Shown one piece after another: positions 18,001 to 21,000 of a stretch of DNA of 64,000 nt. This DNA is from Styela clava. Its lineage: Eukaryota. The DNA lies in the NCBI RefSeq assembly GCF_964204865.1, contig NC_135264.1, positions 11,966,001 through 12,030,000 of the forward strand. Reading direction: 5' to 3'. Position 1 is the stretch's first letter, and every line of letters starts with the position of its first letter. The position numbers are program-made.

Positions 18001-21000
18001 CCTTTTTCTTGGAACTAAGTTAAACAAACAAATGCAAACAAGTGCTTTTTGCAGAGTCAGCTTAGTTGTGCGATCAGCGGACTTAGAAGGCAATGTATCG
18101 CCGATATCTAATATTGCGGCTACTGAATATGTCGTAGGTAAACCAGTAGTGATAGCAACATCGACCAATTCAGTATTTTCAACCTCCATCAAAGTAACAC
18201 CAGTATCAAAATCTACGTCGATACCGAGTAAACCAGAACCATCAAGTGAGTTTAAATTCATATAAATTTGGTTACTATTAGTATATTTTTTTAGACACAA
18301 AACTAGGATTATCAGTGGATGTGAGGTGTAATTTCTGTTTATCTTTTGTGAATCTTAAATATTCCAAATCAAGGATTTTATGAAGAAAATTTTTGCATCA
18401 CATGGAATCCTGTCTCACGCTAATCCTATTTGTCTTCAATATCAAGGACAATTAGTAGCTTTGGGGTCGAAGACAAGCTAAAGCTAATGATAAATCTGTC
18501 TGTGATAAGTCAGAGGTCGATGACCAGAAAGTTCATTTGTCATTCATCAAACGTCACAAGGCGAAGAAGACAAAATTGTCAACTATACTAATGAATTTTA
18601 AATAGAGCAAAGTGAAACTAGCTAATCAAAGTCAGTAAGATCACGTATTATTCATGAACAAACAGACGGTTTTGAAAACTTTTGAAACTAAATAGCGTGA
18701 TGTATATTGCAAAATATGCCTATAGGGTAAGGCAAAGTTCAAAACTAGTATGTTACTGCATCGATGACGACACTATTGAAGTGAATGAATGGAAGATATG
18801 AATAAAATTATGTAGAGCGTTTGTACCTTATGTTTTGATTAGTACATCGCGCGAGTTACATTAGAATTTTCTATATTTACCCTGGAGTTTTGAAGCAGTA
18901 TTACTAATCCATACCTGTTAGTTAAAAACTCACCTTTGCTAGGAAAGATTTTACACTCAAATTATTTTTAACAGATGGACTTATCATTGGACTTTCTGTT
19001 TCGATTGTAATAATTGTCATTTCCGGTAAGTAATTAAATGTTTCTTCATTCGAACTACTGACTAAATATAATATATTATTTAATATGTATATTAATTCTA
19101 GTATTTGGGGCGAATAAGTTGAGCTCATATATTATCAGAACCTAATAAATAGTCTATATGAGGCATTACTGAATCATGGGGTATCGTAGCACCATGTGAA
19201 TGTTCTTGTTTTTTCCGACTCGGAACCTCATGTGTTTAGTTCTTCTTCATATTATACATGTTTATATTCAGTTGTAGCGGTGTTATTATGGTTATGTAAA
19301 CGACACAACCGTAAAAAGGCAGTCAGTCCAAGGGAGAGGGTCTATCAACCAAGCGAATACGACAAGGCCACGGATCTCCCTCGTGAGTGCCCACCGGATT
19401 ATTCGACAGTCAATGCACCTTATCAACAACCTTCTTACAGGTATGAAGCATACCAACGACAACCTTATTATCAAACAAATGATTACGAATTCGCCCAAAC
19501 AAACCAATCTGCCTATGAAACTCCCATACAACAGCAATATTACGAAGATGTCGATAATGCCCCGCCGCTTCCTCCTCGTCCACCAAACCGTGGGTGAGGG
19601 AGTCCAGGTCTCCAGCAAATGCGGATCATTATTCAAAATAGAATAGAATAGAACACAAAATAGAGTACAATTGTAGAAGATGTAGAGTCCTGTCAAGTTC
19701 GGCGCAAAAATATAGTTCCATCGATTACTAATCTTCAAATTAGACTTATTATTTCTGAATATTCCCACGTCAAATTTCGTTTTTTGATGTATGTGGAAGC
19801 GAATGACTAAAAGAAAACCATTGTTGAAGTTATGCCTTTGTTATACATATTATTCAAAAAAAATTGGAAAAAATACCGCGTTCTGTCTGTAATTTAATGT
19901 GACTGGTATTTTGTGACGGTATCAATATAAGTGATAAATGTTTCTTAGAGTGTATTTTTACTTTCGTACAAGACAAATTTCGATAATGTCTCTTATTTTA
20001 TAGATTTTTGATTTTTTCATTTGGTAAACGCTATCTTGATATTGAATTTTAGTTATTAAATAATTAATTATTAAAAATTGCGACAGAGTGAATAATATTT
20101 TTGGTGCACATTTTTTATTCAGATAGCTATTTGTTTTACCAAACCTAGTTTATTGTAAATGTACTTTTTCAATAGTTCATTATTTAGTATGAGTCACGTC
20201 AAGTCGTTATTGGAATGGTATCTTGAATAAATTTTAGTTGTTATTCACGGTAAGTGCTCACGTAAAAGTCGGTGTTGATTACGGAATTTATTTTTGTTCT
20301 TTGAAGTTTAATCTTCGTTTTTAAGTCCACAACCCTTCAACTTTATTTCAGCACAGTTTTGTGAAAGCATTGGTGAAAAAAATCCCAAAGTACTGGTGTT
20401 TGATCATTTCCCAAATCCCAAAATGAAATTGCAAAAGAGTCAAGAGATACGGTATTATTGTGGTTCATTATATATCGGTTGACCCTATACCTGACTTCAG
20501 TTTAATGCAACACGGTGAAAAAGTACTTCACCCAAAATATAGTGCAAAAGATCTGTATAACAAAACGTTTATTGCAAATAAAGTAACTGATTAGTAATAT
20601 CCTTGCTATTTACATGTAACTCTATTATATTTAACTACACATCACAAATGTTTTCGTTGAATCACAAATTGTCCTCGTTTATAGGAGGAACATATATATA
20701 TATATTTCATAAGATTTTAGTTACACACGAGTTGCTATATATATATCAATATAAATGATAATAAAAATGAAACAGTGAGCAGTTATCAACAAAATACAGT
20801 TAAAATGAACAGTATATTGAACTAGAAAACAATACTTGTTTGTTAGAAGTGCAAGTCAGTATTGCGTGAAGTATTACTACTGAAATGTATTTATTAAGCA
20901 TGTGGGTTTTTGGAATATTGCTTCTTTGTCCCAGCCTCCATTTTAGCATTGTCATCTTTAATCTTGTTGGATTTTGAGACTTTGTGTAATTTTTTCTTTC

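What the first reader, a model, noticed from the sequence alone, without database searches (positions are those of the whole stretch)
19298..19597. 99-aa cytoplasmic tail with WW, SH2 and SH3 docking-type motifs
After the TM and stop-transfer KRHNRKK the tail has 13 tyrosines. It includes PPDY (PPxY, a NEDD4-family WW ligand), YSTV, YETP and YEDV (SH2-type or endocytic Yxx-phi/YxxP motifs), and a terminal PPLPPRPP (class II SH3 PxxPxR, as in SOS-Grb2 binding). Paralog C ends in a ~37-aa Lys-rich tail and paralog D in a ~23-aa tail, neither alignable to this one. Motif function is inferred, since short motifs can arise by chance.
Basis: partly seen in the sequence, partly recalled or inferred. 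Interest (0 to 1): 0.7.

Follow-up and report, generated by a model that had tools for sequence, protein, structure and literature searches.

The report
Orphan Tyr/Pro-rich tail of ascidian CLCA
The last exon of one of four clustered sea-squirt (Styela clava) CLCA genes encodes a real, disordered, tyrosine- and proline-rich 99-residue cytoplasmic tail found nowhere else; its docking-type motifs are present, but most are what its composition would give by chance.

Summary
Window 19298-19594 encodes 99 residues followed by TGA, with 13 Tyr, 15 Pro and 11 Gln. PPDY, YSTV, YETP, YEDV and PPLPPRPP are all present.

The window is Styela clava DNA, not human. An NCBI model, P0001 (CLCA1-like isoform X1), carries this exon at 100% identity, joined through a split transmembrane helix.

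Paralogs C and D have the same phase-1 intron inside the helix. Their tails are 36 and 23 residues and do not align with this one beyond chance. AlphaFold2 gives a confident transmembrane helix and a tail below pLDDT 50.

The tail is an orphan. An exhaustive phmmer search of 1.84 billion representatives found only itself, so conservation in orthologs could not be tested.

Composition explains most motifs. PPxY appears in 25% of shuffles, two or more YxxΦ in 27%, and two or more YxxP in 61%. Only the terminal proline cluster stands out, at 0.6%.

Best reading: a lineage-specific disordered docking and sorting tail on a CLCA2-like type I membrane protein. Function is inferred, not shown.

Side finding: gene B has QQWAH where its paralogs keep the zinc motif HEWAH.

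Interest is modest.

The parts
18975..19026 (+). Penultimate exon of CLCA gene B. It encodes the first half of the transmembrane helix (GLIIGLSVSIVIIVIS) and ends with the first base of a split Val codon.
   Evidence: DNA shows acceptor ag at 18973-18974 and donor gt at 19027. An exact block of P0001 residues 606-621 maps to 18977-19024.
19027..19271 (+). Phase-1 intron (gt...ag) that splits the transmembrane helix. The same position and phase are seen in paralogs C and D.
   Evidence: GC is 0.29 here against 0.47 in the tail coding part.
19272..19597 (+). Terminal coding exon of gene B: the last two bases of the split Val codon, the second half of the helix (VAVLLWLC, 19274-19297), the 99-residue tail and the TGA stop.
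   Evidence: Translation. 100% identical to the C-terminus of the NCBI Styela clava CLCA1-like isoform X1, P0001.
19298..19318 (+). KRHNRKK, a basic stop-transfer (positive-inside) stretch.
   Evidence: The AlphaFold2 helix covering residues 606-637 of P0001 includes it.
19391..19411 (+). PPDYSTV: a PPxY (WW ligand pattern) overlapping a YxxΦ pattern (YSTV) on the same tyrosine.
   Evidence: Chance rates are: PPxY at least once in 25% of shuffles, YxxΦ at least twice in 27%.
19421..19432 (+). YQQP, a YxxP pattern.
   Evidence: Two YxxP are observed against 1.93 expected.
19514..19525 (+). YETP, a YxxP pattern.
19541..19552 (+). YEDV, a Tyr in acidic context that fits both YxxΦ and an SH2-type pattern.
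   Evidence: The pattern YE[ED][IVLM] occurs in 0.8% of shuffles, but I chose that pattern after seeing the sequence.
19562..19591 (+). Terminal proline cluster PPLPPRPPNR, holding two overlapping PxxPx[KR] class II SH3 ligand patterns. It is the one motif feature that exceeds chance.
   Evidence: Six Pro in an 8-residue window occurs in 0.64% of shuffles, and two or more PxxPx[KR] in 2.7%.
19595..19597 (+). TGA stop codon.
13326..19594 (+). Extent of the public protein model P0001 (729 aa) on the window. It maps as 14 exact collinear exon blocks covering the VWA domain, the beta-rich and FnIII-like part, the stalk, the transmembrane helix and the tail.
   Evidence: block list. VWA by Pfam and by match to PDB 6pyo.
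10347..13085 (+). Upstream open exons of the same locus that encode a leader peptide and the CLCA N-terminal domain. They are not part of P0001, and their joining to the tail exon is unproven.
   Evidence: No database protein holds exon 12834-13085.
11494..11508 (+). QQWAH, in place of the HEWAH zinc and catalytic motif kept by paralogs A, C and D.

Best explanation
The 99 residues are the real cytoplasmic tail of a CLCA2-like, single-pass type I membrane CLCA paralog (gene B) of the ascidian Styela clava.

The tail is a lineage-specific, intrinsically disordered, Tyr/Pro/Gln-rich low-complexity segment. It sits on the conserved terminal exon, downstream of the second half of the transmembrane helix. 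C and D share only that helix half, and their tails are shorter and unrelated.

Most likely mode of action (inferred, not shown): a docking and sorting tail that controls surface residence and turnover of the protein. The C-terminal PPLPPRPPNR cluster would recruit proline-recognition modules (SH3, possibly WW). PPDY would recruit a Nedd4-type WW ligase. PPDY-STV and YEDV would serve as AP-2-type YxxΦ endocytic signals. Tyrosine phosphorylation is possible but secondary.

Shown: coding status, exon junction, topology logic, disorder, orphan status and motif presence.
Inferred: every binding event.
For: Coding status and junction:
- The exon is 100% identical to the C-terminus of an NCBI Styela clava CLCA1-like protein.
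- All 729 residues of that protein map as 14 exact collinear blocks at 13326-19594.
- Its sequence runs across the 19026|19272 junction inside the helix.
- The same phase-1 intron splits the helix in paralogs C and D. B and D both end the helix with WLC.
- Upstream exons are CLCA_N and VWA.

Structure:
- AlphaFold2 on P0001 with 11 homologs gives folded ectodomain blocks (pLDDT about 80-90) and a helix at 606-637. Residues 637-729 are below pLDDT 50 with no secondary structure.

Composition and frame:
- GC is 0.47 in the tail, against 0.29 in the intron and 0.32 downstream.
- The annotated frame has the best codon score of the six frames: -0.065 bits per codon, against -0.22 to -0.58 for the others.
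- Y, P and Q are enriched with p of about 1e-5 each, and the proline cluster occurs in 0.64% of shuffles.

Published context:
- Consensus definitions for SH3 and WW ligands: PMC4546347 Table 1 (passage).
- The human CLCA2 cytoplasmic tail is needed for its beta-catenin and ZO-1 interactions: PMC4773014 (passages).
- Tail length varies widely among CLCA homologs. It is 15 to 143 residues in the 8 of 11 homologs that have a strong C-terminal hydrophobic segment.
Against: - Given the composition, PPxY, YxxΦ and YxxP counts are ordinary: 25%, 27% and 61% of shuffles reach them.
- No homolog of the tail exists in 1.84 billion representative proteins, in the word-indexed search, in the PDB or in the ESM Atlas. 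There is therefore no conservation evidence at all.
- The paralog tails share none of the motifs.
- Three of six frames are stop-free across the region, so openness alone says little, and the codon score margin is small.
- The public model starts at an internal Met and lacks a signal peptide. No record joins the upstream leader and CLCA_N exons to it, so the type I topology rests on exons whose joining is not documented.
- No expression, phosphorylation or binding data were available.
Confidence: 0.45

Rival explanations
1. Neutral low-complexity extension. The tail is translated but has no specific partners. It is a fast-drifting Tyr/Pro/Gln-rich spacer of recent origin, and every motif match is a by-product of composition.
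For: - Motif counts lie within shuffle expectation for PPxY, YxxΦ, YxxP and YxxQ.
- The sequence is an orphan.
- Paralog tails are unrelated and much shorter.
- CLCA tails are hypervariable in length, from 15 to 143 residues.
- Short 12-13 nt internal DNA repeats hint at local slippage or duplication.
Against: - The terminal proline cluster is non-random (0.64% of shuffles), and two or more PxxPx[KR] occurs in 2.7%.
- The strong threefold compositional bias, and a sharp GC drop just after the stop, fit a maintained coding segment.
- A 99-codon open frame lies in a 35% GC genome, although two other frames are also open.
Confidence: 0.33
2. Phosphotyrosine scaffold. Several of the 13 tyrosines are phosphorylated by Src- or Abl-type kinases and recruit SH2 adaptors (Crk through YxxP, Src or Nck types through YEDV). 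The proline cluster binds their SH3 domains, which would make gene B a receptor-like signalling molecule, as in nephrin or BCAR1-like transmembrane proteins.
For: - There are 13 Tyr in 99 disordered residues, and several have acidic neighbours: EYD, DYS, DYE, YET, YEDVD.
- There are 2 YxxP and 1 YEDV.
- A CRK-family ortholog is reported in Ciona intestinalis. The phospho-YxxP specificity of the CRK SH2 domain is ancient, and transmembrane proteins with several cytosolic YxxP repeats exist (PMC5043372, passages).
- Nephrin signals through 3 cytoplasmic YDxV motifs (abstract of PMC11247170 in the listing).
Against: - YxxP is not enriched: 2 observed against 1.93 expected.
- The tail sequence shows no YDxV, and the scan found no YxN (Grb2-type) motif.
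- There is no repeated motif unit like those of BCAR1 or nephrin: no tandem repeat lies in the coding part and only 12-13 nt direct repeats were found.
- There are no phosphorylation data and no conservation.
Confidence: 0.15
3. Annotation artefact. The exon is not translated in this frame, either because another frame or strand is used or because the segment is untranslated or a decaying remnant.
For: - Two other frames are also stop-free over 19298-19594: the + frame within ORF 19278-19643 and the - strand frame within ORF 19292-19840.
- The codon score for the annotated frame is near zero.
- The public model is computational and N-terminally incomplete.
Against: - Only the annotated frame continues the transmembrane helix across a phase-1 intron that is shared with paralogs C and D.
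- It is followed by a positive-inside cluster.
- It has the best codon score of the six frames.
- The alternative frames reach no Pfam family above its cut-off. There was one sub-threshold match, at 20.1 bits against a cut-off of 28.5.
Confidence: 0.05

Closest known systems
Human CLCA2 (type I transmembrane CLCA with a cytoplasmic tail)
   Same: Both have a CLCA ectodomain architecture (CLCA_N exons at the locus, VWA, beta-rich and FnIII-like part), a single C-terminal transmembrane segment and a cytoplasmic tail. In CLCA2, deleting the tail abolishes the interactions with beta-catenin and ZO-1 (PMC4773014, passages).
   Different: The Styela tail has no sequence relative anywhere and is Tyr/Pro/Gln-rich. 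Gene B also has QQWAH in place of the HExxH motif, whereas CLCA2 self-cleavage needs the Glu of that motif (E165Q abolishes it; PMC10669480, abstract and passages). Whole-protein identity to vertebrate CLCAs is only 28-31%.
PRRG2/PRRG4 (proline-rich Gla single-pass proteins) and similar PY-motif membrane adaptors
   Same: [quoted passage not shown] This is the same working principle proposed here.
   Different: The ectodomain is unrelated (Gla versus CLCA/VWA) and there is no sequence homology. For PRRG, binding was shown by arrays and pull-downs; here nothing is shown.
Multi-tyrosine cytoplasmic scaffolds (nephrin YDxV, BCAR1-like transmembrane proteins with YxxP repeats)
   Same: They are disordered cytosolic regions with many tyrosines, next to proline-rich ligands for SH2/SH3 adaptors (listing and abstracts; PMC5043372, passages).
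   Different: This tail has no YDxV, only 2 YxxP (chance level) and no repeated unit. Phosphorylation is unknown.
CLCA homologs with substituted catalytic sites (Lenart et al. 2013, PMC3650047)
   Same: That paper reports that CLCAs include many members with substituted HExxH sites, and that Glu is most often replaced by Gln (passages). Gene B's QQWAH fits this class.
   Different: The terms Ciona, tunicate and cytoplasmic do not occur in that paper's main text (0 occurrences each). A link between a dead catalytic site and a long tail is not described in the passages I read.

Membership tests
CLCA family (host protein) | CLCA N-terminal domain (Pfam PF08434) | tested here: met
   4 of 20 exon ORFs of gene B match PF08434. 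Two are above the curated cut-off (28.0 and 35.0 bits against 25.6) and two are below it (21.2 and 20.7). Caveat: these exons (10341-13085) are not part of the public model P0001, and no record joins them to the tail.
CLCA family (host protein) | HExxH zinc-binding and catalytic motif in the N-terminal domain | tested here: not met
   Gene B reads QQWAH at 11494-11508, while paralogs A, C and D read HEWAH. Substituted sites are known within the family (PMC3650047), so this argues against protease activity rather than against membership.
CLCA family (host protein) | VWA domain followed by a beta-rich and FnIII-like region | tested here: met
   PF00092 scores 27.8 bits against a cut-off of 23.8. 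P0001 residues 6-148 match the human CLCA VWA structure 6pyo with E = 3.4e-07. Homologs named CLCA by NCBI and UniRef align at 24-33% identity. The AlphaFold2 model has beta-rich domains.
CLCA2-like type I membrane form | Single C-terminal transmembrane segment with a cytoplasmic tail | tested here: met
   The 19-residue hydrophobic window averages 3.09 on the Kyte-Doolittle scale. The AlphaFold2 helix spans 606-637 and the tail beyond it is disordered. KRHNRKK follows the helix. The signal peptide is seen only in the unjoined upstream exon, with ATG at 10347.
PPxY (PY-motif) ligands of Nedd4-family and YAP WW domains | PPxY in an accessible cytosolic disordered region | tested here: met
   There is one PPDY at tail residues 32-35, where pLDDT is below 50. 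However, at least one PPxY occurs in 25% of composition-preserving shuffles.
PPxY (PY-motif) ligands of Nedd4-family and YAP WW domains | Motif conserved in orthologs | tested here: inconclusive
   No sequence related to the tail was found, and no close ortholog of the protein. The paralog tails lack the motif.
PPxY (PY-motif) ligands of Nedd4-family and YAP WW domains | Physical binding to a WW domain, and ubiquitin-dependent sorting | not testable with these tools
Class II SH3 ligands (PxxPx[KR]) | PxxPx[KR] in a proline-rich, accessible stretch | tested here: met
   Two overlapping matches, PPLPPR and PRPPNR, lie at tail residues 89-98. Two or more occur in 2.7% of shuffles, and 6 Pro within 8 residues in 0.64%. 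The consensus and the SOS1 example come from PMC4546347 Table 1. Binding was not tested.
Phosphotyrosine scaffolds (nephrin YDxV, BCAR1 YxxP) | Repeated, enriched SH2-type motifs (YDxV or many YxxP) | tested here: not met
   There is no YDxV in the tail sequence. There are 2 YxxP against 1.93 expected and no YxN. No tandem repeat lies in the coding part and only 12-13 nt direct repeats were found.
AP-2 tyrosine-based endocytic signals (YxxΦ) | YxxΦ in a cytosolic tail | tested here: inconclusive
   There are two matches, YSTV and YEDV. The shuffle mean is 1.03, and 27% of shuffles have two or more. The pattern definition is established knowledge and was not taken from a call.

The most novel reading that the evidence does not exclude
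Gene B may be a protease-dead CLCA (QQWAH instead of HEWAH). It would no longer cleave itself and would stay whole at the membrane. By gaining a de novo multi-tyrosine and polyproline tail, it would have been converted into a receptor-like adhesion or signalling molecule. Its VWA and FnIII ectodomain would then be coupled to WW, SH3 and SH2 adaptors inside the cell, a role not described for any CLCA.
Probability: 0.1. Interest if true: 0.6.

Novelty: new variant of a known kind. Interest (0 to 1): 0.3.

Why it matters
CLCA proteins are studied as secreted or membrane-anchored self-cleaving regulators of chloride channels and calcium entry. Their cytoplasmic tails have had little attention beyond CLCA2.

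If this tail really docks WW, SH3 or SH2 proteins, it would show how a tandem gene cluster diversifies. The ectodomain scaffold stays the same while the last exon invents new intracellular wiring. Together with the lost zinc motif, it would point to a non-proteolytic, receptor-like CLCA.

If it is only a drifting low-complexity tail, it is a useful caution: Tyr/Pro-rich sequences produce WW, SH2 and SH3 matches by chance.

Tried and rejected
Searches for relatives of the tail:
- Word-indexed search among longer proteins: only the self record among 73 candidates.
- Exhaustive phmmer of the 99 residues against 1.84 billion representatives: 1 hit, itself.
- ESM Atlas: no usable hit.
- PDB at E up to 10: 0 hits.
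- Pfam: 0 families.
- tblastn of the tail ORF against the window: only itself at E up to 1e-3.

Other searches that gave nothing:
- Whole-protein search for orthologs: 12 proteins with E up to 1e-10 among 7,999 scored candidates. None was a tunicate other than the query, and the best was 29% identical.
- Search for a record holding the upstream exon 12834-13085: none among 29 candidates. The tool itself calls this weak evidence.

Sequence checks:
- Tandem and direct repeats in the tail DNA: no tandem repeat lies in the coding part. The one AATAG x3.4 run is in the 3' flank at 19637-19653. Only 12-13 nt direct repeats were found, so the tail is not a repeat array.
- Poly(A) hexamers are uninformative: 335 AWTAAA matches against 333 expected.
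- The first + strand AWTAAA after the stop is at 20055.

Codon scoring:
- One search was flawed (only 68 training codons).
- The codon scores were contaminated because the tail exon was in the training set.
- Only one search is used.

Alternative frames and strand over the tail: no Pfam family above its cut-off.

Literature:
- 'Styela clava' with 'calcium-activated chloride channel': 0 papers.
- 'ascidian' with 'CLCA': 2 unrelated papers.

Steps not taken:
- Complex prediction was not used, because no ascidian WW, SH3 or SH2 sequence was in hand and the reference chains on offer are prokaryotic or phage.
- I built no spliced model of my own. Exons were searched one by one. Whole-protein steps used the public record P0001 by its id. 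A joined full-length model (upstream CLCA_N exons plus P0001) was left out, so it stays open whether such a protein exists.
No ascidian genome could be searched for orthologous exons.
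Full report
WHAT IS THERE

The window has no N runs and averages about 35% GC. It carries short exons with gt/ag introns.

Translating 19274-19600 on the + strand gives VAVLLWLC, then KRHNRKK, then a tail ending PPLPPRPPNRG and a TGA stop. From 19298 to 19594 there are 99 residues with 13 Tyr, 15 Pro and 11 Gln.

- PPDY at 19391-19402
- YSTV at 19400-19411, on the same tyrosine as PPDY
- YETP at 19514-19525
- YEDV at 19541-19552
- PPLPPRPP at 19562-19585

I also found a second overlapping PxxPxR (PRPPNR, 19574-19591) and a second YxxP (YQQP, 19421-19432).

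WHOSE DNA AND WHICH GENE

The terminal exon translation is 100% identical, over 100% of its length, to the C-terminus of an NCBI protein. That protein is named calcium-activated chloride channel regulator 1-like isoform X1 [Styela clava] (P0001, 729 aa). All 729 residues map to the window as 14 exact, collinear blocks from 13326 to 19594. The window is therefore ascidian DNA, not human.

The window holds four CLCA paralogs:
- A on the - strand, from about 8342 and running off the window start
- B on the + strand, 10341-19597
- C on the - strand, from about 29393 down to about 20897
- D on the + strand, from about 53254 to about 62620

Exon ORFs of B match Pfam CLCA_N (4 of 20 ORFs, two of them above the curated cut-off) and VWA. 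The VWA part also matches the human CLCA VWA crystal structure 6pyo (E = 3.4e-07).

IS THE EXON JOINED?

The preceding exon (18975-19026) ends with the first base of a codon, in the middle of a hydrophobic stretch. The terminal exon starts at 19272, after ag. P0001 reads straight across that junction.

Paralogs C and D have an intron in the same phase at the same place inside their transmembrane helix. B and D both end the helix with WLC. So the last exon is the homologous terminal exon in all three genes, and only what follows the helix differs.

I had no transcript data.

I made no spliced model of my own. Exons were searched one by one, and whole-protein steps used the public record by id.

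A CAVEAT ON THE N-TERMINUS

P0001 begins at an internal Met inside the VWA domain. Upstream, the locus has open exons with these features:
- an ATG at 10347 followed by a hydrophobic leader
- CLCA_N matches
- a phase-compatible join between 13085 and 13290

However, no database protein contains exon 12834-13085 (which the tool itself calls weak evidence). The type I topology, with the tail inside the cell, depends on that leader being part of the mRNA. I left out the joined full-length model, so this stays open.

STRUCTURE

AlphaFold2 was run on P0001 with 11 homologs (mean pLDDT 69.4). It gives well-folded ectodomain blocks and a helix at 606-637, with pLDDT of about 85-89 in the transmembrane core. 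Residues 637-729 fall below pLDDT 50 with no secondary structure.

The composition points the same way. Only 9 of the 99 residues are V, L, I, F or C. The tail is best described as intrinsically disordered.

IS IT MORE THAN CHANCE?

There are two layers to this question.

Composition is non-random. Y, P and Q are each enriched over the rest of the same protein, with binomial p of about 1e-5. GC is 0.47 in the tail, against 0.29 in the intron and 0.32 downstream.

The motifs mostly are not, once that composition is given. In 100,000 shuffles:
- PPxY at least once: 25%
- two or more YxxΦ: 27%
- two or more YxxP: 61%
- at least one YxxQ: 80%
- two or more PxxPx[KR]: 2.7%
- six prolines within eight residues: 0.64%

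YE[ED][IVLM] occurred in 0.8% of shuffles, but I chose that pattern after seeing the sequence.

The one motif-level feature that stands out is the C-terminal proline cluster.

Openness of the frame is weak evidence, because three of six frames are stop-free here. A codon-usage score trained on the 13 upstream exon blocks ranks the annotated frame first, but only narrowly: -0.065 bits per codon, against -0.22 to -0.58 for the others. The scores are flawed and are not used.

The alternative frames reach no Pfam family above its cut-off.

CONSERVATION

- The tail has no relative in 1.84 billion representative proteins by exhaustive phmmer; the only hit was itself.
- It has none in the word-indexed search of longer proteins (1 of 73 candidates, itself).
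- It has none in the PDB and no usable hit in the ESM Atlas.
- The whole protein finds no tunicate relative. Its best hits are hemichordate CLCAs at 29% identity.

Within the window, the C tail (36 residues, 11 Lys) and the D tail (23 residues, 4 Tyr) align with B no better than shuffled sequences do.

Among 11 CLCA homologs, 8 have a strong C-terminal hydrophobic segment. Their tails run from 15 to 143 residues with nothing in common. The CLCA tail is thus a hypervariable, lineage-specific module, and B's version is an orphan.

The tail DNA is not a repeat array.

HOW IT MOST LIKELY WORKS

This section is inference. The host is a CLCA2-like single-pass membrane protein.

In human CLCA2, deleting the cytoplasmic tail abolishes the interactions with beta-catenin and ZO-1 (PMC4773014, passages). 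A functional tail therefore has precedent in the family.

[quoted passage not shown] NEDD4 and YAP1 are known interactors of PRRG2 (PMC3764795, Introduction).

The published consensus patterns are P-x-x-P-x-(R/K) for the GRB2 SH3 domain with SOS1 and PP-x-Y for the YAP1 WW domain (PMC4546347 Table 1). The tail's motifs fit them.

I therefore rank first a docking and sorting tail, with these components:
- the proline cluster as an SH3 ligand; it also contains a PPLP string, which I recall as a class of WW ligand, not checked in any call
- PPDY as a Nedd4-type WW ligand
- PPDY-STV and YEDV as AP-2-type YxxΦ signals (the pattern is established knowledge)

Because PPDY and YSTV share one tyrosine, the two readings would compete, and phosphorylation of that tyrosine could switch between them. 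That is speculation.

A phosphotyrosine-scaffold reading is possible. A CRK-family ortholog is reported in Ciona, and transmembrane proteins with cytosolic YxxP repeats are known (PMC5043372, passages). Nephrin uses YDxV motifs (abstract in the listing). But YxxP is at chance level, there is no YDxV or YxN, and there is no repeated unit.

The neutral-drift reading remains a strong rival.

SIDE FINDING

Gene B reads QQWAH at 11494-11508, where paralogs A, C and D keep HEWAH.

In human CLCA2, changing the Glu of this motif to Gln abolishes zinc-dependent self-cleavage and the stimulation of store-operated calcium entry. The mutant can still be cleaved in trans by the wild type (PMC10669480, abstract and passages).

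Substituted sites are a known feature of the CLCA family, with Glu to Gln the commonest change (PMC3650047, passages).

If the upstream exons belong to the same mRNA, gene B is a protease-dead CLCA that also carries the longest and most motif-rich of the three tails visible in the window (A's lies outside it). That pairing is the basis of the boldest reading: a receptor-like CLCA.

COMPARISON AND NOVELTY

The host protein is a member of the CLCA family. The domains are met and the catalytic motif is not, which is a known variant state.

The tail belongs to no family. It works like PY-motif and proline-rich docking tails, if it works at all.

I found nothing in print on ascidian CLCAs:
- 'Styela clava' with 'calcium-activated chloride channel': 0 papers
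- 'ascidian' with 'CLCA': 2 unrelated papers
- the CLCA phylogeny paper has 0 occurrences each of Ciona, tunicate and cytoplasmic in its main text

I file it as a new variant of a known kind: a CLCA2-like membrane CLCA with an unprecedented tail.

VERDICT

- About 0.9 that this is a translated cytoplasmic tail.
- About 0.45 that it acts as a docking and sorting tail as described.
- About 0.33 that it is functionally neutral.

Interest is 0.3. The tail's orphan status and the dead zinc motif are mildly surprising. But hypervariable, motif-bearing tails on single-pass proteins are common, and nothing functional could be tested here.

NOT CHECKED
- Supplements of the cited papers: none were opened.

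Noticed in passing
window 11494-11508 (+); paralogs at about 4683-4739 (-), 26812-26928 (-) and 54675-54734 (+): Gene B has QQWAH where paralogs A, C and D keep the zinc-binding and catalytic motif HEWAH. B is probably protease-dead (compare the E165Q result in PMC10669480).
   Followed up: partly
window 10347-13085 (+): Open upstream exons of gene B lie here, with ATG at 10347, a hydrophobic leader and CLCA_N matches. They are phase-compatible with the first exon of the public model. That model nevertheless starts at an internal Met at 13326, and no database protein holds exon 12834-13085.
   Followed up: partly
window 1-8342 (-), 10341-19597 (+), 20897-29393 (-), 53254-62620 (+): There are four CLCA paralogs in 64 kb. 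A and B lie head to head about 2 kb apart. B and C lie tail to tail about 1.3 kb apart. About 24 kb between C and D holds no Pfam-recognisable ORF of 86 aa or more among the 17 ORFs scanned there.
   Followed up: partly
window 62047-62201 (+): An 81-nt unit is repeated 1.9 times at 98% identity inside the Ser/Thr-rich stalk exon of paralog D. This is a recent in-frame 27-residue duplication just outside the membrane.
   Followed up: partly
window 61020-61216, 22171-22373, 47712-47877, 51505-51675, 63386-63545: A dispersed repeat of about 200 nt (74-78% identity between copies) with internal inverted arms lies in introns of C and D and in intergenic DNA. It looks like a small non-autonomous mobile element.
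   Followed up: no
window 19278-19643 (+) and 19292-19840 (-): Two further frames are stop-free across the tail exon, including a 182-codon antisense ORF. Neither reaches a Pfam family above its cut-off. They are probably a by-product of the C/A-rich, stop-poor composition.
   Followed up: yes
window 62518-62622 (+): The short tail of paralog D is also tyrosine-rich (4 Tyr in 23 residues, in acidic context, with Tyr three residues from the C-terminus), although it does not align with B's tail.
   Followed up: no
window 40001-44000: This stretch has higher GC (0.43 and 0.405 against about 0.34 elsewhere). It holds several ORFs of 100-118 codons on both strands, none with a Pfam match.
   Followed up: no
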